64,000 nt of DNA, taken from NCBI RefSeq assembly GCF_963921235.1, contig NC_086097.1, forward strand, positions 28,584,001 to 28,648,000. Direction: 5' to 3'. Made by a program: the position numbers and the translations under genes. The notes below the pieces were generated by a model, which saw only the letters and a list, made by a program, of their open reading frames with translations, did not search any database and was not told where the DNA came from. This DNA is from Mobula hypostoma (taxonomy: Eukaryota). Positions 7,708 through 49,585 of this stretch are shown piece after piece; positions within the stretch are counted from its first letter, which is position 1, and each line of letters begins with the position of its first letter.

Positions 7708-7765
7708 TTTTTGCAGTTAATAATCAGTAACCAGAGTGGGACACCATGTTGCAGCCGGTAGAGGT

Positions 7766-21912: not shown

Positions 21913-21982
21913 CTGAGAGTGGATCTTTAGCAATCATGAGTACATTTGGCAGAGTCATTACCACCAACTGTTGCAGACACTC
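21913..21982 (-). CDS. CCDC88C: CCDC88C (Daple) internal coding exon, equivalent to human exon 4 (70 nt)
   Basis: Minus strand attaacag|GAG...TCAG|gtgagt. Translates [23 protein letters not shown](G), matching Daple [24 protein letters not shown] as recalled. Phase joins the next exon. Confidence 0.92.
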
Positions 21983-22800
21983 CTGTTAATAAAACACATA
22001 GCAAAAATACCCTGATTACACAGAACACAGAACATTACAGCACAGTACAGGCCCTTCAGCCCACAATGTTGTGCTAACCTTTTAACCTGCTCCACGATCG
22101 ATCTAACCCTTCCCTCCCACATAACCCTCTACCATCCATGTCTACCTAAGATTTTCATAAACATCCCTAATGTATCTGCCTCTACCACCAACCCCTGGCA
22201 GCACGTTCCATGTACCCATCACTCTGTGCAGAAAAACTTACCTCTGATATCCCATCATATACTTTCCTCCAATCACCCTAAAATTAGACCCTCTATTAGT
22301 CATTTCACCCTGGGAAAAAATCTCTGGCTGCCAACTCGATCTACAGTATGCTTATCAGGAATGAAGTTCTAGTCAGTATATCAATCTGGCCAATATTGAC
22401 CACGTCTTAATAACCTCAAACTCTCCGTTGAGACATAATGTGAAGTTATCACACGGTGACACAAGGGGAAGACAAGCAATTTCCACAGCAGAAACAACCT
22501 CTTTTCTTTATCACATTCTATAGCGCCTTCACAAAATAATATTTCTTTTGTTCAAGTAATCTAACACTGGGCACGGTTTCTCCAGACATTTCCGTTAACT
22601 GCGGACATGATGACAGGGCTTATCTGTATACAACGGCTTACTAAGCATATTCCTGTTGAAAACTTTTTACAAATTGGCCTCTCTGCTGCTCAAAATGAAC
22701 AGGTCAGAAAGGCAAGGCTCATCACAGATGAAGCTAAACAATGTGCTAATGGAATTGGAAATGGGTTATTATTGTCACCAAGATACAGTGAGAAACTTGT

Positions 22801-23761
22801 TTTTCTTTCTTTTTAAATCTTTTTATTGAATAAGTATACAAAAGGGTAAGCCATATAGGTACTAATACACTGTTAGAATATAATAAAATTACAGGAGATA
22901 TTAATACAGAAAAAAAAGTGATACAAACAATGTAATTTAAACATAACATACTAAGGTAACATAATAGTATACTAATTTATATATATATATATATCAATAG
23001 AGAAAAGGAAAAAAAAACCCAAAAAAAACCCACTGTGCAACTAAACTAAAAGCAAAGCAAAGCAATGGGCTAACTTGGAACCAAATAGAGTTAAAGAACT
23101 TAAAATCACGTCCTCAAACCCGACCTCCATTAAAAACAGTAAAAAAAAAACAAGAAGGGTATATAAATATGGAGCAAAAACGAGAAGAAAAAAAAATTAC
23201 ATTAAATGAAAATATTGAATAAAAGATCTCCAGGTCTGTTCAAATTTAAGTGACGAATCATAAAGATTGCTTCTAATTTTCTCCAAATTCAAGCATAATA
23301 TCGTCTGAGAAAACCAAAAAAAGGTAGTTGGAGCGTTAAGCTCTTTCCAATGTTGTAAGATACATCTTTTCGCCATTAAAGTAAGAAATGCAATCATTCT
23401 ACGGGCTGAAGGAGAAAGATTACTGGAAATTTTAGGTAGTCCAAAGATAGCAGTAATAGGGTGGGGAGAGATATCTATATTCAATACCTTTGAGATAATA
23501 TTAAAAATGTCTCTCCAAAAAGTTTCCAGAGTAGGACAAGACCAAAACATATGAGTTAAAGAGGCTATCTGCCCCAGACATCTATCACAAAAAGGATTAA
23601 TATGAGAATAAAAGCGAGCTAATTTATCTTTGGACATATGTGCTCTATGAACAACTTTAAATTGAATTAGGGAATGTTTAGCACAGATAGAGGAAGTATT
23701 GACTAATTGTAAAATCTGCCCCCAGTCATCCACGGAAATGATAGACCCCAATTCCTGTTCC
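22801..23761 (-). mobile_element. 5'-truncated L1-clade LINE (ORF2 C-terminal CCHC region, 3'UTR, A-rich tail)
   Basis: Uninterrupted 184-aa ORF with CDRC..HMFWSC. AATAAA and A-rich tail on the minus strand. 11-bp TSD gagaaacttgt at 22790-22800 and 23762-23772. Confidence 0.9.
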
Positions 23762-25039
23762 GAGAAACTTGTCTTATGCTCTGTTCATACAGATCAATTC
23801 ATTGAACAGTGCTTTGTTGGATCACAAGATGCAGAATAAAGTGTAACAATTGACAAAGAAAGTGCAGTGCAGGTAGACAATAAGGTGCAAGACCATAATG
23901 AAGTAGATTGTGAGGTCAAGTGTCCATCTTATCATACTAGGGACTCATTCAATAGTCTTATAACAGCAAGATAAACACTGTCCTTGAGCCTGGTGGTATG
24001 GGCTTTCAGGTTTTTGTATCTTCTGCCTGATGGGAGAGGGGAGAAGAGAACTATCCAGGGAGGGTGGGGTCTTTGATTACGCTAGTCACTTTACTGTGGC
24101 AGCGAGAAGTGTAGACAGAGTCCGTGAAGGGGAGATAAATTTCTGTGAGGTATGAGGCTGTGTCCACAACTCTCTGCAGTTTCTTGCACTCATGGGCAGA
24201 GCGGTTGTCACAGCAAGCCGTGATGCATCCAGACAGCATGCTTACAATGGGGCATCGATAAGAATTGCCAATGGTCAATGGGGACATGCTAAATTTCCTA
24301 AGCCATTTGAGCAAGTACATGCTTGCTTGGGGCATTCCTTTGGATATCTACCATAGTAAAACTGATTATCTGATCTGCTCAGGAATTTGATGGCTCTTGA
24401 TATTGAAGAGAGCATGAGAACTGGACCTCTGAGTTTAAAAGGAGGGTGGAAAATAGGCTTCCAGTTAGCTAGATGCTGAACCTTCATGATTACTGTCTCA
24501 CGGGATAGTGATTTGCTGAAGTTTTACTGTAGCTTTTTCCCAGAACAGCACGTAGGATTCATAAAGAGAGCTTTTACCACACTGGCCTTCATAAATCAAA
24601 GTACTGCATACAGAAGTTATGTTGATGTTGAATAAGACATTGGTCAGGCCAAATTTGGAGTATTGTGTGTAGCTCTGGTAACCTATCTAGAGGAAAGATA
24701 TCAATAACAGAGTAAATTTACAAGGATGTTACCAGGACTTGAAGACCTGAGGTATAGGGAGAGGTTGAATAGGTCAGGACTTTATTTCCTAAAGCATAGG
24801 AGAATGAGGAGAGATTGGATCGAGGTATACAAAATATTGAGGGAATAGCAAGCAGGGTAGATTGAGGGTAAATGCAAGCAGGTTCTTTTCCCCACTGAGG
24901 TTGGGTAAGAGTAGAACTGGAGGTCATAGGTTAAGAACAAAAGGTAAACTATTTTCCCCTGCAAGTGAAACCTGAGGGGAAACCTCTTCACTCAGAGGAT
25001 GGTATGAGTGTGGAATGAGCTGCCAGCAGTAGTGGTGGA

Positions 25040-26045
25040 TTGAATTGAACTGAATTTATTTCTTATATCCTTCACATAAATGAGGAGTAAAAATCTTTAC
25101 GTTATGTCTCCGTCTTCATGTGCAATGAGCAATTTATAGTAATTGGTAATAAATAATATATACAACAGGACAGTCAATAGAGCGTAGAAATACAATTGTA
25201 TCAGCGTGAATTAATTAGTCTGATGGCCTGGTGGAAGAAGTCCCAAAGTCTGTTGGTCCTGGCTTTTATGCTGCGGTACCATTTCCCGGATGGTCGCAGC
25301 TGGAACAGTTTGTAGTTGGGGTGACTCGGGCTCCAATGATCCTTTGGGCCCTTTTTTATACACCTGTCTCTGTAAATGTCCTGAATAGTGGGAAGTTCAT
25401 ATCTACAGATGTGCTGGGCTGTCCATACCACTCTCTGCAGAGGCCTGCGATAGAGGGAAGTACGGTTCCCATACCAGGCAGTGATGCAGCCAGTCAGGAT
25501 GCTTTCAATCGTGCCCCTATAGAAAGCTCTTAGGATTTGGAGGCCCATACCAAACTTCTTCAACCGTCTGAGATGAAAGATGCACTGTTGTGCCTTTTTC
25601 ACCACACAGCTAGTGTGTACAGACTATGTGAGATCCTCGGTGATGTGAATGCCGAGGAACTTAAAGCTGTTCACCCTCTCAACCCCAGATCCATTGATGT
25701 CAATAGAGGTTAACCTGTCTCCATTCCTCCTGTAGTCCACAACCTGTTCCTTTGTTTTTGTGACATTGACGGAGAGGTTGTTTTCTTGACACCACTGTGT
25801 CAGGGTGATGACTTCTTTTCCGTAGGCTGCCTTGTTATTACTTGAGATTAGGCTAATCAATGTAGTGTCATCAGCAAATTTAATTAGCAGATTGGAGCTA
25901 TGGATGGCGACAGTCATGGGTAAACACTGAGTTAAGGAGGGGGCTCAGGACACAGCCCTGAGTTGAGGGGCAGAGGTGAGGGAGCCCCCTCTTACCACCT
26001 GCCAGCGATCTAACAGGAAGCCCAAGATCCATCTGCACAAGGCAG
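25040..26045 (-). mobile_element. Rex1/Babar-type LINE 3' part (RT)
   Basis: QGCVLSPLL, KFADDTT, FKFLGIHITEDL, KKAQQ..LRRLKKFG..ESILTGCITAWYG. Inserted inside a CR1 3' end. Confidence 0.8.
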
Positions 26046-26289
26046 GATGAAGGCTGAATTGCAACGTTTGAGAGAAGTTTGGGTAAGTACATGGATAGGA
26101 GGGGCATGGAGGACTATTGTCCAAGTGCAGGTCGATAGGACCGGGCAGAATAATAGTTTGGTATAGATTAGATGGGCTGAATGGCCTGTTTCTATACTGT
26201 CGTGCTCTGAGAGTCTATGACTCCTTGATTTAAGAGGACATTGTCCAAATAGGTGCAGCCGATACGTATGGAATGAAGCTCCGCACGGG

Positions 26290-26645
26290 TACACGCTCCT
26301 GATATATGGTCACCCAGTACAGAGGAGGAACGGATCACTCAGGTAGGCTTGCTCCTGCCATTCTCCGGTCCAGGTAGTGGGCAATCAAGGGCTCTGCCCA
26401 AGCCGACTGCCTGCCCCGCTTCCAGATATACATTCATGTCCGGGTGTCTTGGAGAGGGAGCATGCGACCTCTACGGGCAACATGGGCAATTTCCAAGTGC
26501 GGTGGGCTGGTCCCCCAGGGAATTGAGTGTGTTGTAGGCAATAGTTACTGTATTTTAATTTGAAATTGTAAATAATTTTGTAAATCCCCTGATCATTGTG
26601 TATATTTTGTCAGTGAATGAACTTTTTGGTTTTGTAAAAATAAAG
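26290..26645 (+). mobile_element. Tx1-clade LINE 3' remnant
   Basis: Frame-broken TLLIYGHPV.., DCLP.F..YI..RVS.., resembling the Tx1 ORF2 C-terminus as I recall it, followed by an AT-rich 3'UTR ending in aataaa. Confidence 0.5.
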
Positions 26646-27255
26646 GTTCAATCATACTGCAATCCTTGTTCTGTTATTGTTCACAGCATAGCAACCAATT
26701 GCCTGAATGAAACATTATCACAGGCAACAGGCAGAGAAGCAACAATGATCTTGCAAAATGATGCCAGTCGAAACTCCCTGACCTCTAAAACATCTATCAC
26801 AGTTAGTGCAAGGAAAATGTATTTTCTTAGAAGCAGACTTTCTAAAGTTCCTGAATTTACACAAAACGGAAGCTGCTGCATGTCAGATAGAGAGTAAGTA
26901 CCAGAGTCCTACAATCAGCAGTGAGGGAAATCTCCAGGCTTTGAGCTTCAGGTAGTATTCTAGATGGATCAATATCAGGCAACACACCATCTCCTGCTCT
27001 TCCATTGACATTGCTGGGGATTGCCTGCAGAGGGCTGTAGCAGCTCCATCACAGAAACAAGCCTTTGCCCCATCCAGGACATCTCCAAAAGATAATGCAT
27101 CAGGAAAGCAGCATCCATTGTTGAGGATTCTCACCATCAGGAACATGCCCTCTTCCCATTACTATTGTCATGGAGGGATACAGGAGCATGAAGGCACAGA
27201 GTCAACATTTTGCAGGCAGCTTCTTCTCTTCTGCCATCAGATGTCTACCACACAT

Positions 27256-27792
27256 AAACACAAAATACTCTGCAGATGCTGGGGTCAAAGCAACACTCAC
27301 AACACGCTGGAGGAACTCAGCAGGTCGGGCAGCATCCGTGGAAACGATGAGGCGACGTTTCGGGCCGGAACCCTTCATCAGGACTGAAGAGGGAAGGGGC
27401 AGAGGCCCTATAAAGAAGGTGGGGGGAAGGTGGGAAGGAGAGGGCTGGTAGGTTCCAGGTGAAAAACCGGTAAGGGGAAAGATAAAGGGGTGGGGGAAGG
27501 GAAGCAGGGAGGGGATAGGCAGGAAAGGTGAAGAAGGAATAGGGGAAAGCACAATGGGTAGTAGAAGGAGGTGGAACCATGACGGAGGTGGTAGGCAGCT
27601 GGGGGAGGGGGCAGAGTGACATAGGGATAGGAGAAGGGAGGGGGAGGGAAATACCGAAAGTTGGAGAATTCAACGTTCATACCCAGGGGCTGGAGACTAC
27701 CCAGACAGTATATGAGGTGTGGTTCCTCCAACCTGAGTTTAGCCTCATCATGGCAGTGGAGGAGGCCATGTATGGACATATCCGAATGGGAT
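27256..27792 (-). mobile_element. Penelope-like element 3' fragment (end of ORF plus terminal repeat region)
   Basis: Minus ORF HSDMSIHGLLHC..RLEEPHLIYCLGSLQPLGMNVEFSNFR resembles the C-terminus of the PLE GIY-YIG region. 15-bp TSD atgtctaccacacat at 27241-27255 and 27793-27807. Confidence 0.75.
27350..27386 (-). ncRNA. Minimal type-I hammerhead ribozyme motif (core intact, stem I mismatched)
   Basis: Minus strand cagtc-CTGATGA-A-GGGT(TCCG)GCCC-GAAACGTC-gcct. Confidence 0.55.
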
Positions 27793-28843
27793 ATGTCTAC
27801 CACACATTTCTTTTTTTGTGCACGATTTATTTATTTCCCTAATTTTTTTATCTATTTACTTATTTCCTATTCACTTGTTACTTAATTATTGTGCTTATAT
27901 CTTTGTGCTAAACTGCCGCTGCAAAACAACAAATTTCACATCATTTTAGTCAGTCATATGAAGTTTGATTATGGGTGGTACTAAGATGTGGTGAAGTCTG
28001 TTCACAATGTTTCATCAGGGGTAATGGTGGAAGCAGACAGATTGGTGGAGTTTAAAAGGCTTTTAGACAGATACGTGAATATGAAGGGGATGGAGAAAAA
28101 CGGATGAAGTACAGGAAAAGGACAGTATAAATTGGCATCAAGATTGGCACAACATGGTGGGCCGAATGGCCTTTCTTGTTCTATGTTTAAGGTGGTTAAA
28201 CTTGGGAATTCCCTCACTGGAAAGTCATTGAATGTCAGTGACCAAGTGCATTTAAAACAGATCCTGGCAGATCGGGCATCAAGGAACGTGAAGATGGAAC
28301 AGGAAAATGAAACCGAGATCGAGCAGGAAAATGAAACTGAGATAGAACATCAGATATGAATTTGGTGTCAGTTTATATTGTCAAATGTACTGAGATACAA
28401 TGAAAAGGTTGTCTTGCATACAGTTCATACAGATCAGATAATTCACACAAAGCATTAAGGTAGGATGAGGGAAAACAATAACAGAACCAGAATAAAGTGT
28501 AACAGTTGCAGAGTAAGTGCAGCGCAGGTAGACAAAAAGGTGCAAGATAGGGGCAACACTGCAGATAGTGCAATCGATTTACAACGTCAGCAATCATTGA
28601 TTCCCGCCACTCCTCGTGACCATGCGCGTTTCCTCCAGATGCTCTGGTTTCCTCCCACATTCCAAAGACATACCGGTTAGAATTAGTAAGCCCTGGGCGT
28701 GCGAGGTTGGCACAGGAAGTGTGGCGACACTTGCCGGCTGTCCCAGCACATTGCGAAAACAATGACACAGGTGATGCATTTCACTGCGTGTTTTGGTGTA
28801 CACGTGACAAATAAAGCTAATTTTCTCTCTTTAAAACAAGGTA

Positions 28844-28996
28844 CAGGTCGACCTTCACTAATCTGGCACCATTGGGACCTGAGGAGGGCCGGATTAGTGA
28901 AAATGCCGAACTACAGAAGGATCACATTAAGCATAACCAGTGCCGGATTATCGAAGGAACTGGATTACAGGTAGTTGCATTAGTGAAGGTCGACTG
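28844..28996. mobile_element. Tigger/pogo-like MITE
   Basis: TA + caggtcgaccttcactaat ... attagtgaaggtcgactg. The right TA is not preserved. Confidence 0.65.
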
Positions 28997-30014
28997 AAGA
29001 TTGTGAGGGCATTAGCTCATCTTATCATACTGGGGAATTTTTCAATAATCTTATAACAGCAGGGTAGAATCTGCCCTTGAGCCTGTTGTATGCTCTTTTC
29101 TATCTTTTGCCTAATGGACGAGGAAGGAAGGAAGGATATCCAGGGAACGGCAAAGCAGTCTTGAGGGGATTTATGGCCTACTTCTGCTCCTATTTCTTAT
29201 GCACCTACCCTTTGATATCCTTCAACTTCCTCTTTACCAAGGCACCCTGATGCCACACTGGGTCAAATGCTGCCTTGATGTGATGTGCAGTCACGCCCTC
29301 TTCACCTCCGGAAAACAGCCCTTTGCTCCATGTAACAGGGTCTGCACGCTGCTCCTGGAGCCGAGTAATATGTAACCCTTTTGTTTGTGTTCAAGTACCA
29401 TGAATTGTTTGATGGTTTGAAATTTGACCTTTGCAAATCGACTTTCTTAAACCTGTCACGGCAACATCAATGAGAACACGCATGCAGAGTTCAAGTCAGC
29501 ACAGGCTGGTGGGAGCCTCACCCCACCCTATCCTACAAACAAAGCACCATCAGTTCTACTGTCTAGATTAATCCTCGGATTCAGCACTCGGACCATGAAG
29601 AGAGACTAAAGAGCAACAGCAGTGGTCAGGAACTCTGCCTCAAGGAAAAGGCAACAAATAAATATTTGGCATAACTCTTTCCTTCACCTTCCTTCCTAGT
29701 TGTTTACAAGAATCCAGGCCAATATTTTAGAGCATTATCAAAGGAGTATTAGAGATATGTTTCAACCATCAAGCCACTGGCTAAGAACTCATCCATTAAA
29801 AGACCCTAAAATATCATATGAAATCCCCATCTGTGTTCTGGCTATATTTATTCAACAATGAACTTCCTACAAAAAAATTACAGTAAACCTCCAATAATAT
29901 GACACACTGGAGTCTTGGTTAGCATTGGATTAGCAAGTTCTCCGTACTATTGGACATTAAACCAAATGTTAATACTTAATATATTTATAATTCAATTTTT
30001 TAAGATGTATTTAA

Positions 30015-30350
30015 TAGGTGACAGGGAGGAGATACATCTCTGTTAAAGGAAGTGTAAGGTGTTCCTTCCCTCTGCTGGCCTGCCAGTCACCCCTGGGCAA
30101 GGTATATCACCTGCTTAGCACCCCCACCCTGATCAGGGTCACATGGAGCAGCTGGAACATATCACAAGTCCTAGTATGCGACCACTGACACCAGGCAATC
30201 TCTGAAGAGTATTGATAATGGCTGCTGGGATCACCCGCCTTGTAAGGACACTGGCCCAGAAGAAGGCAATGGCAAACCACTTCTGCAGAAAGAATTGCCA
30301 AGAACAATCATGGTCATGGCACATACAACTCGACACATAATGATGTTGAT
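30015..30350 (+). mobile_element. Short non-autonomous RTE-related (Bov-A-like end) retroelement; second copy at ~63400-63778
   Basis: Both copies share internal sequence. This one has gaaggcaatggcaaaccac..ttgccaagaa, similar to BovB/RTE terminal motifs, and an (ATG)n-like tail. Confidence 0.55.
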
Positions 30351-32265
30351 GACAGTATTTAAGCATAGCGTTAGAATAGAAGGATTTCTCTTTAGAACAG
30401 AGATGGGGAGGGATTTCTTTAGAGAGTGGTGAATCTGTGGAATTCATTACTACAGATATCTGTGGAGGCCAAGTCATTGGGAATATTTCGACCATAAGAG
30501 CAGAATTAGACCATTTGGTCTTCCCTAACATTCCATCATAGCTGATTTATTTTCCCTCTCAACCCCATTCTCCTACCTTCTCCCCCATAACCTTTGACAC
30601 TCTTACTAATCAAGAACCTATCAACCTCCATTTTAAATATGCCCAATCTTAAAGGAGAGGTTGATAGATTCTTGATTAGTAAGGGTAGCAAAGGATATGG
30701 GGAGAAAGGAATTGAGAAGAAAAATAAATAATGGTGATCAAATGGTGGAGCAGAGTTGATGGGCTGAATGCTTCTCCTATGACACATGATCTTATAATAA
30801 ATTTCCCCCTGGCAATTGGTAATTGATTTATTATTGTCAGCTGTATCAAGATGCAGTGAAAACCTATTGCTTGGTTGCCATTACATTATAATTACATCTG
30901 GCTAGTGAGAAGGAAACCGAATGTAGAATAAATTATTACAGTTACAGAGAAAGAGTATTCCAGGTAAGTAATAAGATGGAAGAGCTACCATGAACCTGCT
31001 GAGTTAGGAACCACCCCCCACCCCTCACCATCTCTAACCTCACTTTCCTTTCCAAATTTCTTAACGCTTTCGGTCTATTAGCATCAAGATGCAAGTTAGC
31101 ACTGGTGACATACTGCAATGCTTTGCAGGCAGCTTACAAAACTTCTAAATATACCTCTTCTGAACTACTCTCACTGCGATCTGCGGTCTGTATTTTCCCT
31201 TTAAATAACGTATTTTCTAATCATCTTAACGAACTAGCGATTTCACGATCTTCTGAAGGACTGTGCAGATGTAACTCTCAAGAGTGCAGGTTTGTCACCT
31301 CTAAGTGGATGAAGACACATTACTGTGGCCGACAGAGAGGAAGGAGGGGAGGACTCCAAGCCAGACTAAAATGAAGAGGCAAGAAATTTGCTCTACCCAG
31401 GACCGAGATATACCAGCTGGTTAAGTAATGTCACAGCCTTTCAAGCCCTGAATGAACCACAATCTGCTGAGGGCCAGGTCAGAGGCATTCAGTACTGGCA
31501 ACCAAGTAAAATACAAAGTCCCGGTACAATCTCCAAAAAGTCATCTCACATGCAAAGTGGCAATTCTAGACCAAACCTGAATCACTGAAGGATGCTCAAC
31601 AGCTATGGCAAGCCTTGAATGCCATCACATCCTACAAAGTGAAGCCAAGCAACACAGACGACAATAAGGCTTCACTCCCAGATGATCTCAATGCCTTGTA
31701 TGCTCACTTCAACCATCAAAACATGGAGGCACCTTTACAAACTCCCACAGCTCCTAACGATCCTGTGAGTTCAGTCACTGAGGCCCACGTGAGAACATCC
31801 CTCAGGAGGGTGAATCCACGAAAATCATCTGGTTCAGATGGAGTACCCGGCTGAATAACTAAAGACCTGTGCTGATCAACTGAGCGCTCACTGATATCTT
31901 CATTCTTCCACTTCAGCAGTCTGAGGTACCACCTGCTTCAAGCAGCTTCAATGATACCGGTGCCCATGAAGAACATGGTAATCTGCCTCAATGACTATCC
32001 TCCAGTAGCACTTACACCCACTGTGATGGAGGTGCTTTGAGAGCTTGGTGATGAAATACATCAGCTCCTGCCTGGGAAATGACTTGGATCCATTCCAAGT
32101 TGCCTACCGTCAATTCAGATCAATGCAAGGTGCCATTTCATTGGCTCTTCACTCAACCCTGGAAGATCTGGACAGCAAAGGTGCATATATCAAGATGCTC
32201 TTCATTGACTACAGCTCGGCAATCAATACTATCATCCTCTTAAAACTAATCAATAAGCTTCAAGA

Positions 32266-32750
32266 ACAAAAACAACAGGAATTCTGCAGATGCTGGAAAT
32301 TCAAGCAACACACATAAAAGTTGCTGGTGAACGCAGCAGGCCAGGCAGCATCTCTAGGAAGAGGCACAGTCGACGTTTCAGGCCGAGACCCTTCGTCAGG
32401 ACTAACTGAAGGAAGAGTGAGTAAGAGATTTGAAAGTTGGAGGGGGAGGGGGAGATGCAAAATGATAGGAGAAGACAGGAGGGGAAGGGATGGAGCCGAG
32501 AGCTGGACAGGTGATAGGCAAAAGGGGATACGAGAGGATCATGGGACAGGAGGTCCGGGAAGAAAGACGGGGGGGGGGGACCCAGAGGATGGGCAAGGGG
32601 TATATTCAGAGGGACAGAGGGAGAAAAAGGAGAGTGAGAGAAAGAATGTGTGTATATAAATAAATAACGGATGGGGTACAAGGGGGGGGTGAGGCATTAG
32701 CGGAAGTTAGAGAAGTCGATGTTCATGCCATCAGGACCGTCTCCACCTTC
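32266..32750 (-). mobile_element. Penelope-like 3' fragment with 11-bp TSD
   Basis: aagcttcaaga at 32255-32265 and 32751-32761. Minus strand ends ..[11 protein letters not shown], followed by a pyrimidine-rich UTR and the terminal repeat. Confidence 0.78.
32368..32403 (-). ncRNA. Minimal type-I hammerhead ribozyme motif
   Basis: Minus strand AGTC-CTGACGA-A-GGGT(CTCG)GCCT-GAAACGTC-GACT. Shows both catalytic boxes, stem II, stem I AGTC/GACT and a palindromic ACGT in place of stem III. Predicted cleavage after GUC. Confidence 0.65.
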
Positions 32751-33878
32751 AAGCTTCAAGACCTTGGTTTCAACACCTCCTTGTGCAACTGGATCCATCT
32801 TTTCCTCACTTGCAGACCCCAGTCAGTTCAGATTGGCAACAGCATTGCCTCCACAATCTCCATCAGCACAGGTGCACCACTAGCCCTATGCTCTGCTTGC
32901 TTTTTAATTATGACTGTCAGGCTAAGCACAGCTGTAATGCAATACTTAAGTTTGCTGACAACACCACAGTAGTAGGCCGAATTAAGGGTGGTGATGAATC
33001 AGCTTGTAGGAGGGAGACTGAAAACCTGGCTGAGTGATGCCACAACAACAACCTCTCACTCAGTGTCAGCAAGACCAAGGAGCTTTTAATTGGCTTTAGG
33101 AGGAGGAAACTGGAAGTCCACGAGCCAGTCCTCAGCAAGGAATCTGAGGTGGAGACAGTCAACAACTTTAAATTCCTCAGTGTTATAATTTCAGAGGATC
33201 TGTCCTGGGTCCAGTATGCAAATGCCATTGCAAAGACAGCACTTCAGCCAGAAGTTTGTGATGATTTGTCATGTCATCTAAAATCCTGACAAACTTCTAT
33301 AGATGTGTGATGGAGAGTATATTCACTGGTTGCATCAATGGCCTGGTATGGAAACACCAATGCCCTTGAAAGGAAAAGCTTCAAAAAGCAGTGGATTTGA
33401 TGACCCAGTCTATTGCGGGTAAAGCCCATCCCATCATTGAGAACATCTAGACAAGCACTGTCGCAGAAGAGTAGCTTCCATTAAGGACACCCACCATCCA
33501 GGCCGTGCTCTCTTCTCGCTTCTGCCATCTGAGAGAAGGTCCAGGAGCCTCAAGACCCACACTACCAGGTTCAGGAGAAGTTATTATGCCTCAACCATCA
33601 GTCTCTTGCACAGAGGGGATAACTCACTCACTCCATCATTGAAAGGTTCCCACAAACCATGAACTCACTATCAAGAACTCCACATCTCATGTTCTAATTA
33701 TTACTTGCAAATTTATTTATTATTATTATTTCTTTTTTTCAGCTTTCTTTCTGAATTTTCAGAGCTTATTGTCTTTTGCACATTGGTTGTTTGTCTGTTC
33801 TGTTGAGTGCAGTGTTTCATTGCTTCTATTGTGTTTCTTGTTCCTGTGAATGCCCACAAGAAAATGAAACTGTTTCTA

Positions 33879-33945
33879 TACACTGTGCAAGGGTCTCAGG
33901 CACACATATCTAGCTAGGGTGCCTAAGACTTTTGTACAGTACTGT
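33879..33945. mobile_element. Tiny palindromic Tc1-derived MITE remnant
   Basis: actgtgcaagggtctcaggcac ... gtgcctaagacttttgtacagtactg+TA forms an imperfect inverted repeat. Confidence 0.5.
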
Positions 33946-34594
33946 ATGTACTACTATGAACCTGTGAGAAGTTGACGGTCTCCTGGCAGAGCAAGATGTC
34001 CCTAAAAAATGCTGCAGATTGTCACAATCCACACTGCAGGAGTACGTACTGAGAGATGCACTGATGCTTGTGTCTCAAAGGGTCTGAGAGGAAGGACCAC
34101 AGCCTGGGTTCCTTCTGCTACCACACATGGAAAGGCTGAATCGGGTGAGACTCAGAAAATACAACTTAACTGTACAAAGCGGGCCTTTTGGCCCACAATA
34201 TAGTGCGGACCTCTTAACACTATTCTACAATCAAGCTAGCCATTCCCTCCTACAATACTTTCCACTTTTCTATCCATGTGCCTAAGACTCTTACATGTCC
34301 CTAACGTATCTGCCTCTACCACCAACCCCCAGCAGTGCATTCCAGGCACCCCACCATTCTCTATAAGACCTACCTCTGACAGAGTCAAAGAGCACTACAG
34401 CACAGAAACAAGCCCTTAGCCCACCTAATCAGAGCTGAACATCTCCACCATACTTTACTCAACTTAAAAGGATGTCCACTGGTTTTGGCTATTGTCATCC
34501 TTAGAAAAATGTGCAGGCTGTGCACTCAAATCTATGCTTCTTATAATGACAGCATTTTAAAGACCTTTGGACAGCTTTATGTATAGGAAGGGAT

Positions 34595-35084
34595 CATCAT
34601 CAGCATCAGCTACCATGCCCAGTTTGAGCTTTGACTGCCATGGCCCACACACTCCTGTTTCGGGTCAAGTGGATCAATTCATTGGTATTCATTTCCAGTT
34701 CTCTGGCTGCTGTCTCCATCATCATTTGTCTTTGTCTTCCTCTTGCTTTCTTCCCTTCAATCTTTCCCATAATTACCGTGCATTCTAACTCCTCTTTCCT
34801 AATCACATGTCCAATGAAGTTACATTGCCTTTTCATGATCTCATACATTATTTCTCTTTTTGTGTTTGCTCTGTTCATGGCATCTTCGTTAGATATTCAT
34901 TTCGTCTATGATGTTCTTTGCATCCTCCTCAAAAACCACATCTCTGCTGCTACAATTTGTTTCCTCATGTTACTAGATATTGTCTGACATTCTAAGCCAT
35001 AAAACATAACTGGATAAACGTACCATTTCAGTACTCTGAGGCGGGTTGTCATGCCTAGTTTGGTATTGGTCAGTATACTCATCA
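34595..35084 (-). mobile_element. 5'-truncated RTE-clade LINE
   Basis: ORF ..FIGHVIRKEELE...GKIEGKKARGRQR..RSVW. (ATG)n tail. 13-bp TSD tataggaagggat at 34582-34594 and 35085-35097. Confidence 0.85.
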
Positions 35085-38000
35085 TATAGGAAGGGATACG
35101 CAGGCAAATGGGACTAATTCAGTGAGGCAATTCCTTAGCATTTACGTGGAACGCTGCCACAAGAAATCAGCATCCATCATGAAAGGCTGTCACCATCCAG
35201 ACCACGCTGTCTTCTCACTACCACCACTGGGCAGAAAATACAGGAGCTTTAGGTCCCACACCACCAGTTTCAGGAACCTACAACCATCAGGCTCCTGACC
35301 AGCATGGATAACTTCACTCAGCACAACTCTGAACCTTCAGACCCACTTCCAAGGACTCCTTACAACTCATGCTTTCAGTATTGTTTCTATTTGTATAGCG
35401 TCTTCTTTTGCACATTAGTTGTTTCAGTCTTTGTTTAGGAATAATTTTTCATAAAAATTTATTGTATTTCCTTTCTTCTGTAAATGCCTGCAAGAAATTG
35501 AATCTCGAGGTAGCATATGGTAACATATATATACTTCAATAGTAAATTTTACTTTAAACTTTGAACTTGGTCAGCATGAAGTAGCTGGGCCAAACGGCAG
35601 TCACTCTGTGATCTTGCCAAATGGCTGATTCTGTGACAGCAAGTTTGGGTTAGAAGATCTATTATGGCAAGGACTTCCTTAAGAATTCCCAGTCACAGGG
35701 TTCAGATACTTTCAGATGAGAAACTTGGAAGTGGTTGAAGGAGTCCTTTTTGATGACTCCCACACATTGACTGCCAGTTTTCCTTAGTTCTATCCAGAGA
35801 TCAAAGTAACCAGTATTTACTGATCTGTCGTGGAATTGGGTTGAATCCAATATCTCTGCCAATTAGATTACAATGAATAGCTTGCAAAGAAAAACAAGTT
35901 AAACTTGCAAAAGAATCATTCATAACCTGGAAACAAACATTTGGGTTTTCCAGTTTGAGAAACAAAGAGAGTGCAAAACTCAAATAGTCTTTTATTGTTA
36001 CACCACTTGTTTCACCAGCATTCCTTCACAGTTCGAGATGTATAGCATGGAAACAGGCCCTTCAGCCCATCTAATCCATGTTGACTATCAACTGTGTAGG
36101 CTCTTCTGGGTGTACCTGTTTCACTTTCCAAAGATGTACGTGTTAGGATTAGTAACTTGTGGGCTGCTCCCAGCATGATCCTCAGACTGTGTTGGTCTTT
36201 GACACAAGCTGTGTATTTCTCTGTGTTTTGGTGTACATGTGACAAATAAAGCTTATGTTGGCTGCACTAATCTACGCCAATCTAATTTTATTCTCCCCCC
36301 CCCCCCATCAACTCCACCCAGATTCTAGTACTCACCTACACTCTGATGAAATGGCCACGTAATTTCAGAGGAAAGTGATTACACTCAACCTTGCTGGAGA
36401 TGCTTTGTGCCCAACACTTGTGGATTGCAAATGTTACTTCCTATTTACTAATCCATGCATGAACACTACCCAAAGACTAACCTGGCACATCAAGAATCTA
36501 AATTTCATTTCAACAAATGGAATTACCATTATATAATTAAGAAGTTACAAGGCAGCCAGGACTAAACACAAAACTCAGAGCATTATAGAAACATAGAAAA
36601 CCTACAGCACGATACAGGCCCTTTGGCCCACAAAGCTGTGCCGAACATGTCCATACCTTAGAACTACCTAGGGTTACCCATAGCCCTCTATTTTTCTGAG
36701 CTTCATGTATCCATCCAGGAGTATCTTAAAAGACCCTATCGTTTCCGCCTCCACCACCACCGCCAGCAGCCCATTCCACACGCTCACAACTCTCTGCGTA
36801 AAAAACTTAACCCTGACATCTCCTATTATAGATAGGATGTGGAATCTTTACAGAGAGAGCTGAGGAGATTTACCAGAATGCTGCCTGGATGAGAGACAAT
36901 GTCTTATGAAGATGGGTTGAGCAAGCTGGGGCTTTTCGCTTTGGAGCGGAGGAGGACAAAAGGTGACTTGATAGACGTGTACAAGACAATAGAGGGATAG
37001 ACAGAGTGGACAGACAGAGATGTTTTCACAGGGTGGAAATAGCAAATATGAGGAGGCACAATATTAGGGTGACTGGAGAAAAGTATGTGGGAGGGGTTAG
37101 TAGAAGCAGATACAGTAGGGATATGTAAGGGGCACATATGCACATGGATGAACATAAATGGAGGGAAAGAAGAGTTAGGTTGAGCTCAGCGGAGGTTTAA
37201 AAAGTCAGCGCAACATCATGAGCCTGTACTGTTCTATATTCATTGTAAGAATGATGTGTCATGACCCAACTGATCAGATTATGAGCAGCCAGTTGTCTTG
37301 GTAAATTCAATTTTACATCAGATAAGAGACTACCTCCAAGATGCTCTCTTCCATGGATTTAAATGCAGAACACAGTGATCTGTTATTCTAAGGCAAGAAT
37401 GCATTAAGGCATGCATCAGTTTTGCATAACTGCTTGTTCATACAAAACAAACAATTATTTAAACTTGTCCAAATTAGGAGCATTGAGAGAAGTTCGGTCA
37501 GTGAGTCAAGTCACACCCAGCTTCTGGGTTGGCAGGATGTGGCTTCAAGCACAACATCAGAATTTAAGAGAGACAAAAGATTCTGCAGATGCTGGAAAAT
37601 TTAAAATTTCAAGATTCAAGAGTACTTATCACATGTACGCTGAAACACAGTGAAATGCAATGTTTGTGTTAACAACACTCACAAAGTGCTGGGGAAACTC
37701 AGCAAGTCAGGCAGAATCTAAGGAGGGGACTGAACAGTCACCTTTCAAGCCAAGACCAGTCTGATGCTCAGAAATTAAGAATTTAAAAGAAAAAGAAAAT
37801 TCCATTCAAGTTAGTATTGCTGATGAGTATTTTGTATCCAGAGATAAAAGATTACAAGTGTTATTTGTCACTTGTACACTGAAACCTACAGTGAAATATG
37901 TTGCCAGTGTACAACACTTCCTCGGTTGACATCTTCCATCAAACTGTTTATTTCACTCCTTTTACATCTACCTTTTCTCTTAAGTATGTTTCTGGAACTG

Positions 38001-38370
38001 TCAGAGCTTGCGATTTACGGTTTGGAGATTGACTGAGTGATCTAGCATTTTGCTGTCTCCGAGAAGATTTCAGGAAGCGAGCATGAGTGGCTTCGAAGTG
38101 AAGAAGCTTAGAGACAAGGCATAAACCCACAACTGTATCCATTTCACTGATTAGAGCGTCCATTAATCGCCGATTAAAGCATCAAGGAAGATTGAAACAT
38201 TGAGGCAAATGCAGAAGGCGAGCGAGGATTTGGAGCCGACTACCTGCTTCTTAATTGTCGCAGTGACGGATCTCTCTGCTGCCGAGAAAGGAGACTGTGA
38301 GGTGGCTGCCTATCACTCGCTGCTCTGAAGGGGAGGCCTCTGTGTTCAAGTGATATCTCTCAATGCTGTA

Positions 38371-39184
38371 GGTTCAACAGAGAAGCTACCTCAGCTAAAT
38401 ACTCCTGCCCCACCTGGTCCGTATTTGCATCAACAAGAGGACTACATTACTTTACCAAAGTGCCAAGGATATTCAGATGTGTTAGTAATAGTTGACAAAT
38501 TTCCAAGATGGGCGGAAGCTATCCCAGCAATAAAAAAAACTACTACCACACACACACACAGACACACACACAAAACCAAAACTCTAATGAAGGACTATAT
38601 TCCTCGATGGAAATTGCCACGCCACAGTGACTCTGACAGGGAACACATTTCACTGGAAATGCTTGTCAAGAGTTATGTCGACTGATGAACACTGAATAGT
38701 CTTTTTGCTGCCCACATCATCCAGAGTCATCAGGACAGGTTGAAAGAATGAATGGCGTCATTAAACAACGACTGACTAAATATCATGAGGAAGGCGTACC
38801 ATGGCCTACAGCTCTTCCCTTGATACTATGCAGCATCAGGGCAGCCCCAGACAAGAACACAAAACAGAGTCCATTTGAAGTGGTGACAGGTTGACCTACG
38901 TCACTACCGGGAGCTCTCGATCTCAGATACGTTCCCTGTCAGATAGTTCAGTTGATTGCTGTGCAAAACTAACACAAGCTATTCAGTCTGCTGCTCAACA
39001 GGTTTCTGCTGCTTGGAGTGATCCATCGAAAGGAGGACAAACCAAGTGGGTCCTGGTCACGAAACCACATAAGGACCCTCAGGGAGCTCAGTGGGAAGGT
39101 CCTTACCAAGTATTGTCAATTACTAATTCAGCAGTTAAGGTAGAAGGTAAAAATAGGTGGATACACGCCAGCCACTGCAAATGA
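38371..39184 (+). pseudogene. Endogenous retrovirus integrase pseudogene (class I, gamma/epsilon-like)
   Basis: DYITLP..YSDVLVIVDKF.RWAEA.P, YIPRW.LP..DSDR/GTHFTG..HHPESSGQVERMNG.IK..L, W..ALP..L..IR..P....SPFEVVTG, then WEGPYQVL..T.SAVKV.G...WIHASHCK. D-35-E spacing is preserved after a frameshift at ~38640. Confidence 0.85.
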
Positions 39185-39468
39185 GCTGAAGTGACTCCAG
39201 ATTTAAGACAAGTACTGAGGGAACACTTCAAACACGAATATAATTACTGAACATTATTATTATAATCCACATTTTTGTGTTTGTTTAAAAGCGATTATTA
39301 CCAGCATAGCTCAAACTCATAAGCATTCCAAATGTATTCAATCATGATGCAGAACTATAAATTGGTTTAGCAGTATTTTGTGATTACTCTGTATTGTAGG
39401 TAATTCTGCCTCTGAATTTTCAGATGTGATTCTGCCAGGGTCTCATTATAGAATCAGAAGTGGGGGAC

Positions 39469-39924
39469 TGCTGGAAACCACTGTCCCTTCTTCAATAATA
39501 TTTTTTAATAAGATTTTTGACAGACTCCTGTGTTTTTCCACAGTCGCTGCCAGAAAGTGGTCTAGCAGCAAAGCTAACAGTTTATCACCTTCCTCGTTTT
39601 TCATTGGCTAAGTATTAGCACATTATCCACATGATACAATTGTTTTAATTATATAGCCTATGAATTAATTCATTCCCATCTAAGGCATTTCTTTTATCTT
39701 ACCTATAGAAGTGATTTATTTCTCAAAAGCGCCATCTCTTTATCTTATATCCTTGAGCATTACTTCCCCTCTTAGCATTGTTTCTCAGCTCTCTATTTAG
39801 TTTGCTCAGTATTTGTACGTTTGTTCATGCTCTAAAATAAACTGAAATCATGGAATTAAGACTGCTCGCCGTTTTTGACTCGCAGAAGAACCCTCAGGAT
39901 CAGAAATTAAACAGAGATCCAACA
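39469..39924 (+). mobile_element. Putative 3' LTR of the ERV
   Basis: Preceded by a purine tract agaagtggggga(c) at ~39456-39468. Ends TGctgga ... tccaaCA (6/7 inverted match). AATAAA at 39836-39841. Confidence 0.7.
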
Positions 39925-39944
39925 CTATTAAGCCCAGTGAAACA

Positions 39945-40205
39945 TAGAAATATAGAAACATAGAAAATAGGTGCAGGATTAGGCCATTCGGCCCTTCGAG
40001 CCTGCACCGCCATTTATTATGATCATGGCTGATCATCCAACTCAGAACCCCGCCCCAGCCTTCTCTCCATACCCCCTGACCCCCGTAGCCACAAGGGCCA
40101 TATCTAACTCCCTCTTAAATATAGCCAATGAACTGGCCTCAACTGTTTCCTGTGGCAGAGAATTCCACAGATTCACCACTCTCTGTGTGAAGAAGTTTTT
40201 CCTAA
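39945..40205 (-). mobile_element. CR1 3' end fragment
   Basis: Near-identical to 7240-7485. (catagaaa)n tail. Confidence 0.8.
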
Positions 40206-43200
40206 ACCATTTCTATTGACCGGAGAAGAAGGCAAGGCAGGTTATCGGTGCCCTAAAACCAGTCACTTTGGGCAGATGGGGCTTGTCAGCCATGGCTGGC
40301 AGGTCATCTAGGAGAAGGAAAACTCTGATCTCAAACCTCCACTGACTTGTGGCTAAACCCACTCCTGGGGACGGCGTTGGGAGTAAGCTTTGAGAAAGAA
40401 ATCCGGAGCTGGAGTCCCTAAGGCAATCCCACGTTGAGTTCAATGCTGACTGGCGACATCAAACTCTATCGGTCTCTGCCGTTCCTTTGGATTCATCAGC
40501 TGTGTGGAGAAGGGGAGCTTGCCGAATGGACAACAGCTTGTTCTCCATATCGTACTGCCCTGGCTTGCGTATCATGTAGATGGCTGGGACGCAACACTCA
40601 TGGTCGACCCTGAGTGACGGAGGGCCCCAAACAGAAATACCAGCATGTAATTACTTCATAAAAAGTGGTTTACAGTGCTTACAGTGCAATGAATGAAACA
40701 AATACTGACAGAACACATGCTGCTGAGTCCGTGAAGGTGAGAGTGCAGGCTGTGGAATCGCTTCAGTGCTGAGATAGTGAAGCCAGTTCAGGGGCCTGGT
40801 AACTACAGGGCAACAACTGTCCCTGAACCTGGCGGCTCTGACCCAAGACTCCTGCACCTCCCTCCCGCCCAATGGTAGCAGTAAGAGGAGAGGTGGAGGG
40901 GTCAAACGCAGGCAGATGGGATGGGCGCAGGTGCAGGATCTATCAAGATAACATGCAAGTTTATTTCGACTTTAGATTAAATTTTAATTTGTGATAGTTG
41001 ATCAGTGTAGGAAAAGGTGAACTTGGAGGGGTTAACATAGCTGCGATCCAGCCTGGAAACACACACTGAGCTGGTCTCTCCCCCTAAACTTATTCTATTC
41101 ATTCAGAGGCAAGGAACTGCAGCAAGAACCCATTAATCACACAGTCAAGTTTGCCTATGTACTGATTGACAAGACCTATAATCAGGCTAAACCTGCCAGC
41201 TTGTACAGAAAGACCTTCCAGCAGCACCAGACGGCTGTGAAAATTTGCCAAGACCTGCATCAGGGTGTAAACACGTTTACTTCAGGGTCTGGCGAAAACA
41301 GTCCAAGGCCAGTGTGCGGGTCTGCCTCACGGTAGAGGAATCAGACTGCAGGTCCTTGCCCGGCAGAGCTGGGTGAGAGATATTGCAACAACCTGATGCT
41401 ATGGCAACTTCCACTGTCTGTTGTAACTATAGACACAGAGAGAGAAACTGTGAAGCAATTAATCACATCAGTAGGGTGAGAAGTGATCACAAGCACATTC
41501 CAATTCATAATGTTGAGGAAACCACTCCAAACAGCTTCAAAAACATTCATGAGGAAACTAAGATTTTGTAATCAGATTGAAGAATTACAGAATAAAGTAG
41601 AAAATTATCTGTATTACTTCAAAGGTGTCATTGGACTAATCACTAGAGGTGATGATTCTAAGCACCTCCAAAGTTCAAAGCAAATTTATATAAATACATA
41701 GATGTCACAATATACTACTGTGAGAATCATTTTCTTACATTCACAGTAAAACAATGAAATTCAATAGAATCAATGAAAAACTACACACAAAGACTGACAA
41801 ACAACAAATGTGTAAATGCCAAACTTCAAATTTAAAATAAATAAATACGTGCAAAGAATATGAGTCTTTGAAAGTGAGTCCATAGGCTGTGGAATCAGTT
41901 CAGAGTTGGTGGATGAGGTTAAATCTGGTTCAAGAGCCTGATAGTTGAAGGGTAATAACTGTTCCTGAACCTGGTGGTGTGGGACCAAAAGCTCCTGTAC
42001 CTCCTTCCCGATGGCAGGGCCGAGAAGATAGCATGGCCTAAATTGTGGGGGCCTTTGATAATGAATGCTGCATTTTGTGGCAGTGCTCAAAAGTGGGCCA
42101 AGGCCTGCATCAGGGTGTGAATGCGTTTACTTCAGGGTCTGGCAAAAACAGTCCGAGGCCAGTGTGCAGGTCTGCCCCACGGTAGAGGGATCAATCGGAC
42201 TGCAGGCCCTTGCCCTGCAGAGCTGGGTGAGAGATAGGAATCCAAGTACCTCCAGGAAGTGAAGAAGCTAATGTCCCTGGTGCAATCACAACAACTTGGA
42301 GCTGAATGTTCTCAAAACCATGAAGATGCCTATCAACTTCAGGAGAAGTGTGCCTCCTCTCCACCCACTCATCATTAATACCTCTACAGTTGGCACCATT
42401 TCAGCATTCAGGTTCCTGGACATCATTATTCTGAGGTATATCTCATGTGGAAGAACCATTTCTCCTTCATAAACAAAAAGACTTGGCAGGGGAGTTCGAG
42501 GGTTCGATATTATCATTTAAAGAAAAATTGGATAGATATATGGACAGGAAAGGAATGCAGGGTTATGGGCTGAGTGCAGGTTGGTGGGACTAGGTGAGAG
42601 TAAGCGTTTGGCACGGACTAGAAGGGCTGAGATGGCCTGTTTCTGTGCTGTAATTGTTATATGGCTATATGTTATATGGGAGGTACTGCTTGTAGCAGTT
42701 GACCGAATTCCACCTTCCCCAGAACATACTAGTGCAATTCTACTCCGCCATCATGGAGAGCATCCTCACATCAGCAATTACATCTGGCTTGGGGCAGCAT
42801 CCTCTCTCAATATACAGAAGCTACAGTGAACTGTCAGGTCAGCAGAAAACGTCATTGGCTGCAGCCTACCACCACTGCAGGACTTGTGTATGTTCAGGAC
42901 AAAGAAGCCAGCAGGAAAAATCATTGCGGAAACTACCCACCCCGCAATCTACCTTTTCCAAAAGCTCCCTTCTGGAAAGCACTAAAGAGCTATTAAAACA
43001 ACAACCATACCATTTCCCCAATCTGTTCAGCCCCCCCTACCCCGCTCTATTTCCTTGTGAATGCACTGAAAACACTTTAAACCACTTTTTATTATGCTTG
43101 TGTTTCTGTATTTATACACATTTTATTCCAAGTCTATACTTTAACCCCCGACTTTATTTTCCATATAATTGAATGTTGTATATTGTTGCCTGCCCCACCA

Positions 43201-43739
43201 GCGCACCACAACAAACATTCAGGAGGCACTTGGACAGGCATATGGAGACGAAGGGTTTGAAAGGCCGTGGGCCGAACGCAGGCAACTGGGAGCGGCAGGG
43301 AGGGTCCTCAGTTCAGGATGGACTGGTTGGGTCGAGGCACCGGTTTCCGTGTTGTAGTACTGTACTCTGCTCTACTCTAGATCATCACCTGCGATGGGTG
43401 GCACAGAGTACTGTACTCAATCCAAGCTGCATTTGCTTATTATAGTTGCTTTTGATTAATTACATTTTGCAACCTTCCCCCTGGTCAGATTCCAGCTCAG
43501 AATCAGGTTTATTGTCACAGGCGTGTCACGAAATTTATCGTTTTGCGGCAGCACATTGCAATTACATTGGACCATAAGCAATAGGAGCAGAATTAGGCCA
43601 CTGGGCCCATCAAATCTGCTCCACCATTCCATTATCCCTCTCAGCACCATTCCCCAGAACCTTTGCCACCCTCTCATTCGTCTGAATGCCAGCAGGTACA
43701 GTCCCTGGCTATTCAATCTCTCCTCACAGGTTTTTTTAT

Positions 43740-49420: not shown

Positions 49421-49585
49421 CAGGAGAGGAGGCTGTGGACCGATGATGTTGGAATGGGAAGTTGAATTGAAATGGGTGGCCACTGAGATGTGAATAGAGT
49501 GAAGGTAGGCGACAAAGCGGTCCCCCTATGTTGGGTCTTACCAATGAAGAGCAGCCACTCTGGGGGAAGAGCGTAAGCCGTAGAT

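What the first reader, a model, noticed from the sequence alone, without database searches (positions are those of the whole stretch)
32368..32403. Intact minimal hammerhead ribozyme core in the sense strand of the CCDC88C intron
Seen: on the minus (host-transcribed) strand, AGUC-CUGACGA-A-GGGU(CUCG)GCCU-GAAACGUC-GACU, i.e. both catalytic boxes, stem II, a 4-bp stem I and a palindromic ACGU in place of stem III. Established: Penelope-like element terminal repeats carry minimal type-I hammerheads thought to cleave as dimers. Inference: this TSD-flanked insert places a potentially self-cleaving RNA in the host pre-mRNA.
Basis: partly seen in the sequence, partly recalled or inferred. Interest (0 to 1): 0.72.

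Follow-up and report, generated by a model that had tools for sequence, protein, structure and literature searches.

The report
Penelope retroelement hammerhead in Daple intron
The motif is the small hammerhead-ribozyme sequence carried at the end of a Penelope-like jumping gene, one of tens of thousands of identical copies in this ray-like genome, which happened to land in an intron of the Daple gene; it is a known kind of element with no sign of an effect on the host gene.

Summary
Minus-strand 32403-32368 is a minimal type-I hammerhead: both catalytic boxes, an extra A, a 4-bp stem II, a 4-5-bp stem I and an ACGU palindrome. It lies in the 3' pseudo-LTR of a 5'-truncated Penelope-like element (Neptune-type linker; relatives encode RT plus GIY-YIG) of about 466 bp. 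The insert has an 11-bp target duplication and sits inside a decayed LINE in the 79-kb third intron of CCDC88C/Daple, on the sense strand. The exact 36-mer occurs 32,886 times in this genome, so about 0.4 sense copies are expected in this intron by chance. Copies decay almost neutrally: 624 variants at core A's against 855 at four non-core sites. There is no stem covariation beyond shuffles. A lone copy is predicted to fold with its catalytic boxes paired to each other, and published PLE minimal hammerheads are inactive as monomers, weak as dimers or protein-assisted. Verdict: a real new member of a class described in 2014, most likely a passive passenger. This scan noted the same kind of motif before, twice in this genome and in three other genomes.

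The parts
32368..32403 (-). Minimal type-I hammerhead motif (stem I 32403-32400 with 32371-32368; CUGACGA 32399-32393; extra A 32392; stem II 32391-32380; GAA 32379-32377; ACGU palindrome 32376-32373; C17 32372)
32270..32735 (-). 5'-truncated Penelope-like element copy, about 466 bp, differing from the family majority at 9 positions
32697..32735 (-). Last 12 codons and stop of the element's GIY-YIG endonuclease frame ([12 protein letters not shown]); longer copies continue upstream into the endonuclease and RT
32306..32696 (-). 3' UTR / pseudo-LTR body that holds the hammerhead; matches both 419-bp direct repeats of the near-full-length copy L063
32270..32305 (-). About 35-nt 3' 'tail' typical of Penelope-like elements: 34 of 64 young copies end at its far end, 22 of 64 end 25-50 nt earlier
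   Evidence: tail definition from PMC8557442 passages
32736..32750 (-). 15-nt filler at the 5' junction, not matched to the family; origin unexplained
32255..32265 (.). Target-site duplication, left copy (11 bp)
32751..32761 (.). Target-site duplication, right copy (11 bp)
31400..33600 (+). Decayed LINE reverse-transcriptase region that the element interrupts (limits approximate; the frame reads ..KLINKLQ into [15 protein letters not shown] across the insert)
21983..64000 (-). Part of CCDC88C/Daple intron 3 (about 79 kb; it continues beyond the window to exon 3 at C1:28,685,426)
21913..21982 (-). CCDC88C/Daple exon 4 (70 nt), the next exon downstream of the motif

Best explanation
The motif is the minimal hammerhead that a young, very abundant Penelope-like retroelement (Neptune-type) carries in its pseudo-LTR. 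This copy arose when the element's GIY-YIG endonuclease nicked the target and its RT copied only the last 466 nt or so of the element RNA, leaving a tail and an 11-bp duplication inside an old LINE in Daple intron 3. Shown: sequence, boundaries, family and copy number. Inferred from PMC11167929: the insertion chemistry. In the parent element the motif probably acts on the element's own tandem transcript, as a double hammerhead in which two ACGU palindromes form stem III, or with help from the element's protein (inferred from published PLE work, not tested here). In the host pre-mRNA this single copy most likely stays folded in an inactive form, is spliced out with the intron and decays by mutation.
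For: Longer copies continue upstream into a GIY-YIG frame (PF01541 E 5e-4) and an RT frame (RVT_1 E 3e-5); both Pfam scores lie below the curated cut-offs. L063 has pLTR-ORF-pLTR structure with 419-bp repeats 3.49 kb apart and a CX5CxxC linker. Inverted partner copies occur in many loci, and 17 of 34 tailed copies have an adjoining 11-17-bp direct repeat. There are 32,886 exact copies against 0 for the reversed control, and 89,573 relaxed cores against 216. Expected sense copies: 0.38 in this intron, 1.2 in the gene. Changes concentrate at CpG sites, including catalytic G8 in 5 of 58 copies. Variants at core A's number 624 against 855 at four non-core A/U sites, on 36,060 exact 34-mers. Only 2 of 13 family copies in the window keep both boxes. 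Monomer MFE is -11.0 kcal/mol with the two boxes paired to each other, against -7.0 for the hammerhead shape; the double hammerhead scores -11.5 against -22.0 for two monomers; stem I and II probabilities are 0.02 or less in four contexts of 91-601 nt. Published: S. mansoni minimal hammerhead monomer inactive, dimer low (PMC4209133); the Anolis PAc hammerhead needs protein and no RNA-seq ends were seen at its cut site (PMC11167929).
Against: No cleavage assay and no raw stranded RNA reads were available, so 'inactive in the host transcript' is inferred. Core A's vary at 0.73 times the rate of the control sites (p 2e-9); this is a small but real deficit that could reflect selection on source elements or sequence-context mutation rates. 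Nearest-neighbour energies ignore Mg2+, core tertiary contacts and protein chaperoning. The 15-nt 5' filler is unexplained.
Confidence: 0.9

Rival explanations
1. The motif cleaves the Daple pre-mRNA at a low rate in trans, pairing with one of the many identical hammerheads in other nascent RNAs or helped by the element's protein, but with no consequence, because the flanking exons stay held on the polymerase and splice anyway.
For: The sequence is intact and identical to 32,886 copies, so partners are plentiful. ACGU is self-complementary. The PAc hammerhead cleaves when its protein is added (PMC11167929). Hammerhead cleavage inside an intron did not stop splicing in work summarised in PMC2995048.
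Against: The active dimer is predicted to be about 10 kcal/mol less stable than two misfolded monomers and about 19 less than the inactive duplex. Dimers were only weakly active even in cis (PMC4209133). In PAc, the minimal active template needed the first 172 nt of the ORF; this copy keeps only about 100 nt past the cut site.
Confidence: 0.07
2. A domesticated, regulatory intronic ribozyme that affects Daple splicing or output, like the conserved amniote intronic hammerheads (RECK) or the CPEB3 ribozyme.
For: It is sense-oriented, intact and inside an intron. Domesticated intronic hammerheads exist (PMC6155905 passages).
Against: The insertion is young (9 differences from the family majority), so intactness needs no selection. 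Its presence is expected by chance. It has no stem III, and minimal PLE hammerheads lack the tertiary contacts (PMC6155905). It is nested in another dead transposon.
Confidence: 0.02
3. A chance hammerhead-like sequence, or a non-LTR retrozyme (tandem non-autonomous repeat) rather than a PLE end.
For: Rfam has no hit. The isolated 51-mer folds no better than shuffles (z 0.19). No covariation above shuffles among 20 copies.
Against: The descriptor finds 0 hits in 200 of 200 simulations. The motif sits at a fixed place in the pLTR of RT + GIY-YIG elements and matches the published minimal-hammerhead layout, including the extra nucleotide and palindrome (PMC4209133). Tandem Repeats Finder lists no array here.
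Confidence: 0.01

Closest known systems
Minimal hammerheads (min-HHR) in pseudo-LTRs of metazoan Penelope-like elements (Cervera and de la Pena 2014, PMC4209133)
   Same: Type I; both boxes; extra nucleotide between 9 and 10.1; short helix I; no helix III, with palindromic 15.2-16.2; lies in the pLTR; mostly dispersed single motifs from truncated copies; reported from Xena, Poseidon and Neptune elements of fishes.
   Different: Stem II is 4 bp and closed by G10.1.U11.1 in the dominant young subfamily (55 of 58 copies); a C11.1 pattern has 7,392 copies. Copy number (32,886 exact, 89,573 relaxed) is well above the 4,000-9,000 the paper reports for coelacanth and Xenopus, though the search methods differ. 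I saw no cartilaginous fish in the two of four parts read.
Neptune clade of EN+ Penelope-like elements (definitions from PMC8557442 passages)
   Same: Single RT + C-terminal GIY-YIG frame, CX2-5CxxC linker, pLTRs, inverted 5'-truncated partners, 30-40-bp tail, hammerhead in the pLTR.
   Different: No tree was built, so Neptune versus Nematis, which share the linker, is not resolved. No strong microsatellite targeting is evident at the 3' junctions printed.
PAc (Poseidon of Anolis carolinensis), PMC11167929
   Same: Hammerhead at the pLTR-ORF junction; tail made by two RT start sites; model for protein-assisted cleavage.
   Different: Different clade (this family has the Zn-finger linker). The PAc start codon lies at stem II, whereas here no ATG lies in the open frame at the motif.
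Conserved intronic hammerheads of amniotes (RECK and others; PMC6155905 passages)
   Same: Type-I hammerhead in an intron of a protein-coding gene.
   Different: Those are conserved across species and carry tertiary contacts. This one is a young, massively repeated transposon end without stem III.
Non-LTR retrozymes (bioRxiv 10.64898/2026.07.22.740005)
   Same: Type-I hammerhead related to PLE pLTRs.
   Different: Retrozymes are tandem, non-coding units. This copy is single, 5'-truncated and ends in the coding frame of an autonomous PLE.

Membership tests
PLE minimal type-I hammerhead | CUGANGA and GAAA boxes with an NUH cleavage triplet | tested here: met
PLE minimal type-I hammerhead | Helix I of 4-5 bp and a helix II | tested here: met
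   73.8% and 89.9% of cells paired across 20 copies
PLE minimal type-I hammerhead | Unpaired nucleotide between 9 and 10.1 | tested here: met
   A32392, in 58 of 58 young copies
PLE minimal type-I hammerhead | Palindromic 15.2-16.2 in place of helix III | tested here: met
   ACGU at 32376-32373
PLE minimal type-I hammerhead | G10.1-C11.1 pair (highly conserved, not invariant) | tested here: inconclusive
   Pair kept as a G.U wobble here and in 55 of 58 young copies; G-C in 7,392 copies of a related pattern and in 9 of 20 aligned copies
PLE minimal type-I hammerhead | Located in the pLTR of a PLE | tested here: met
   L063 direct repeats
PLE minimal type-I hammerhead | Compensatory changes in the stems | tested here: inconclusive
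   Covariation score 0.203 against shuffled 0.203; 264 of 500 shuffles as high; 1 two-sided change. The copies are related, decayed insertions, so power is low
PLE minimal type-I hammerhead | Self-cleavage as a dimer or with protein | not testable with these tools
   Needs an in vitro assay; folding only
EN+ Penelope-like element | Single frame with RT followed by a C-terminal GIY-YIG endonuclease | tested here: met
   L060 593-aa frame: RVT_1 E 2.8e-5 and GIY-YIG E 0.011, both below the curated cut-offs; relatives carry the same two families
EN+ Penelope-like element | pLTRs, inverted partner copies and a 30-40-bp tail | tested here: met
Neptune clade | CX2-5CxxC linker between RT and endonuclease | tested here: met
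   3 of 3 frames examined: L038, L060, L062; shared with Nematis
Neptune clade | RT phylogeny places it in Neptune | not tested
   No named reference PLE proteins were held; the 120 hits listed carry no clade names
Non-LTR retrozyme | Tandem non-coding units, each with a hammerhead | tested here: not met
   No tandem array; the copy ends in PLE coding sequence
Domesticated intronic hammerhead (RECK type) | Stem III and tertiary contacts that allow monomer activity | tested here: not met
   No stem III
Domesticated intronic hammerhead (RECK type) | Conserved at the orthologous intron position across species | not testable with these tools
   No related genomes are held; the copy is young

The most novel reading that the evidence does not exclude
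With about 33,000 identical and about 90,000 box-intact self-complementary hammerheads, this genome may have enough of them in nascent RNA for trans double-hammerheads or element-protein-assisted cleavage to cut host introns genome-wide. That would be a measurable load that has shaped where sense copies survive, and the G.U closing pair of the dominant young subfamily would be an attenuating change that let it expand. Nothing here shows this; it is only not excluded.
Probability: 0.05. Interest if true: 0.65.

Novelty: new member of a known kind. Interest (0 to 1): 0.12.

Why it matters
As a single locus it matters little: it is one passenger among tens of thousands. The family is of modest use. 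What PLE hammerheads do is still open (PMC8557442 says they may simply parasitise PLEs), and a genome with about 33,000 identical young copies gives unusual statistical power for two tests: sense versus antisense survival in introns, and pooled cyclic-phosphate end mapping at C17.

Tried and rejected
Rfam: no match; this is not evidence against a minimal hammerhead. Isolated folding: no excess stability (z 0.19 and -0.41 for the two short segments). A first idea that many copies share a fixed 5' end (a non-autonomous unit) was rejected: the shared start is only where this copy is truncated, and the others continue into the endonuclease. A HOOK_N search found other loci but not this gene; an ESM Atlas query on a mis-set part of an exon frame gave only hits under 0.9; gene identity came. 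The substitution contrast (core non-CpG 2 of 581, rest 284 of 12,807) was set aside as biased by how the copies were picked. On 20 partner copies not picked directly, core was 1 of 200 and flank 16 of 1,078, too few to decide; the genome-wide counts replaced it. For the covariation alignment, 19 of 27 diverged copies plus the window copy were used; 8 with little recognisable motif were left out. RNA: no RNA holder listed. Four contig sets were laid; they cover the motif region, but contigs cannot show strand, ends or level and the sequence is multi-copy, so they say nothing on cleavage or expression of this locus; the joints table was cut (256 rows not shown). A spliced pLTR intron was considered: a pyrimidine tract and CAG lie just 5' of helix I, but the family has no GT donor at the stop codon and no matching joint was among the 15 rows shown. 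The 15-nt filler was not matched to the family; the one hit within 2 mismatches (L042) was not pursued. No solved structure matched the element protein. Only 2 of 9 wanted regions around long copies could be fetched, so full-length structure rests on L063. Lunse et al. 2017 (dimer cleavage) was not held; only its title was seen, in a reference list. Searches for hammerhead + Penelope + shark and Penelope + stingray + transposable elements found no paper describing this family; subscription papers and supplements were not seen, and the supplement of PMC4209133 may list cartilaginous-fish motifs. A sequence look-up in earlier findings returned nothing.

Full report
Observation. In hammerhead numbering C3 is 32399, an extra A at 32392 precedes stem II (G.U, G-C, G-C, U.G, loop CUCG), the GAAA box is followed by CGU so that ACGU is a palindrome, and C17 is 32372. 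A descriptor that demands both boxes, an NUH triplet and both stems finds only this site in the window and nothing in 200 of 200 Markov simulations. Rfam has no match.

Host context. An exon frame at 6020-6208 matches Daple/CCDC88C, best in stingrays (94% to the Hemitrygon protein), so the genome is ray-like; it has 3.48 Gb. That protein maps four exon pieces to the minus strand of the window. Exons 1-3 lie beyond the window, exon 3 at C1:28,685,426-28,685,536, and exon 4 begins at window 21982 (sequence). The motif is therefore on the sense strand of a 79-kb intron, 10.4 kb before the acceptor.

The insert. An 11-bp direct repeat at 32255-32265 and 32751-32761 brackets about 485 bp that interrupt a decayed plus-strand LINE RT frame. 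An uninterrupted LINE copy in L032 has the two flanks abutting with an 11-nt overlap, and contigs of public runs join across the site, for example 32254 to 32751. On the minus strand the insert has a 15-nt filler of unknown origin, then the last 12 codons of a frame ending [12 protein letters not shown], a pyrimidine-rich 3' region, the hammerhead and about 100 nt more. Family copies that reach further upstream continue into a GIY-YIG endonuclease and an RT; the Pfam scores are below the curated cut-offs, but 1,062 proteins match the frame, and many of the 120 listed carry the RT family, some also GIY-YIG. L063 shows the whole layout: two 419-bp direct repeats 3.49 kb apart, each with the hammerhead, around a frame broken by frameshifts in that copy. 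Three of three endonuclease frames examined carry a CX5CxxC linker, the mark of Neptune and Nematis in PMC8557442 (passages). Many loci hold an inverted partner. Of 64 young copies, 34 end at the tail end, 22 end 25-50 nt earlier and 8 end elsewhere (the search query favoured tailed copies). Seventeen of the 34 tailed copies have an adjoining 11-17-bp repeat; 12 have none in the DNA held, 4 have only 9-mers and 1 is offset. These are the hallmarks of Penelope-like elements.

How common it is. The exact 36-mer occurs 32,886 times (reversed control 0); a relaxed two-box pattern occurs 89,573 times (control 216); a C11.1 pattern 7,392 times. One exact copy per 106 kb gives an expectation of 0.38 sense copies in this intron and 1.2 in the gene. 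The window holds 13 copies of the family's end region, 9 sense and 4 antisense; 2 of 13 keep both boxes, and the second, at 27357-27381, has a mismatch in stem I. The copy in question differs from the family majority at 9 positions, so youth explains why it is intact.

Selection. Among 58 young copies, changes cluster at CpG sites, including catalytic G8 in 5. Genome-wide, on 36,060 exact 34-mers, freeing four core A's adds 624 matches and freeing four non-core A/U sites adds 855. The ratio of 0.73 is significant (p 2e-9) and counts somewhat against pure neutrality; it may reflect source elements that tolerate non-core changes or context-dependent mutation. Hundreds of core-broken copies show there is no strong selection after insertion. 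Across 20 copies of several ages the stems are 82% paired, far above slid registers, but covariation equals shuffles (264 of 500 as high).

Mechanism. Shown: anatomy and origin. Inferred: activity. The lone motif is predicted to pair G5-A6-C7-G8 with C15.2-G16.2-U16.1-C17, locking both boxes (-11.0 against -7.0 kcal/mol for the hammerhead shape). The double hammerhead scores -11.5 against -22.0 for two monomers and -30.3 for an inactive duplex, and in 91-601 nt of context the stems have probabilities of 0.02 or less. These energies leave out Mg2+, tertiary contacts and protein. PMC4209133 (parts 1-2 of 4 read) reports no activity for a Schistosoma minimal monomer and low activity for dimers. 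PMC11167929 (parts 1-2 of 4) found the Anolis PAc hammerhead cleaves only with the element's protein, is not needed for insertion in vitro, and leaves no RNA-seq ends at its cut site. PMC2995048 (passages) summarises work in which hammerhead cleavage inside an intron did not block splicing, whereas a fast HDV ribozyme did. The most likely picture is a motif that serves the parent element's tandem RNA and is inert in Daple pre-mRNA.

Comparison and novelty. It meets the sequence and position features of PLE minimal hammerheads, with a G.U in place of the usual G-C closing stem II. It is not a retrozyme (no tandem array; preprint 10.64898/2026.07.22.740005, part 1 of 5 and a term search read) and not a RECK-type domesticated ribozyme (PMC6155905 passages). 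Two literature searches found no description of this family in sharks or rays; subscription papers and supplements were not seen. Earlier notes of this scan report the same kind of motif twice in this genome and in three other genomes; I had reached this reading before seeing them and do not count them as evidence. Verdict: a correct catch, a new member of a known kind, low interest at this locus; the very large young family is a good system for testing what these hammerheads do.

Noticed in passing
window 32427-32406 (minus): A branch-like sequence, pyrimidine tract and CAG lie 2-3 nt 5' of helix I; in some older copies the CAG runs directly into helix I. In D. virilis Penelope the intron end maps to the 5' end of helix I (PMC4209133). 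It may be an element intron acceptor, and a cryptic acceptor on the sense strand of the host intron.
   Followed up: partly
L063 1060-2049 (+); window 32403-32270 (minus): One reading frame stays open through the hammerhead and tail into the element's N-terminal region with no ATG at the motif; the C7 and U11.1 variants of the young subfamily are both third-position changes in that frame.
   Followed up: partly
window 32736-32750: 15-nt filler between the target duplication and the truncated 5' end, not matched to the family.
   Followed up: partly
window 59151-59403 and 63781-64000: Two head-to-head inverted pairs of older hammerhead-bearing PLE ends, the typical 5'-inversion structure; both have decayed cores.
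   Followed up: partly
window 1775-1925 (minus): A young copy (98% over 95 nt) truncated just 3' of the cleavage position, so it keeps the tail but no hammerhead.
   Followed up: partly
window 27254-27830 (minus): An older-subfamily PLE end with endonuclease C-terminus and a hammerhead with both boxes and G10.1-C11.1, but a mismatch in stem I; same strand as the finding, 5 kb downstream in the same intron.
   Followed up: partly
window 2775-5552 (+), 57710-58222 (-), 7233-7485 and 39951-40203: A fairly intact LINE (RVT_1 E 4.6e-25) and near-identical 3' fragments of related LINEs (92-94% alike).
   Followed up: no
window 23197-23784 (minus): L1/Tx1-like LINE C-terminal fragment with a zf-RVT hit (E 1.9e-6); the clade label is recalled.
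   Followed up: no
window 50546-50730 and 28292-28349: Tandem arrays of 38-bp (4.9 copies) and 24-bp (2.4 copies) units.
   Followed up: no
G000:C22:57.58-57.78 Mb and C82:14.38-14.43 Mb: Two paralogous CCDC88 loci found with the Daple protein.
   Followed up: no
L048 985-4940 (minus): Two long open frames (671 and 682 aa) that look like an LTR-retroelement gag-pol beside a PLE copy; label from inspection only.
   Followed up: no
protein hits P0088, P0092: NCBI ray gene models named for ordinary genes contain several hundred residues of this element's RT, suggesting mis-annotation or exonisation of PLE sequence.
   Followed up: no
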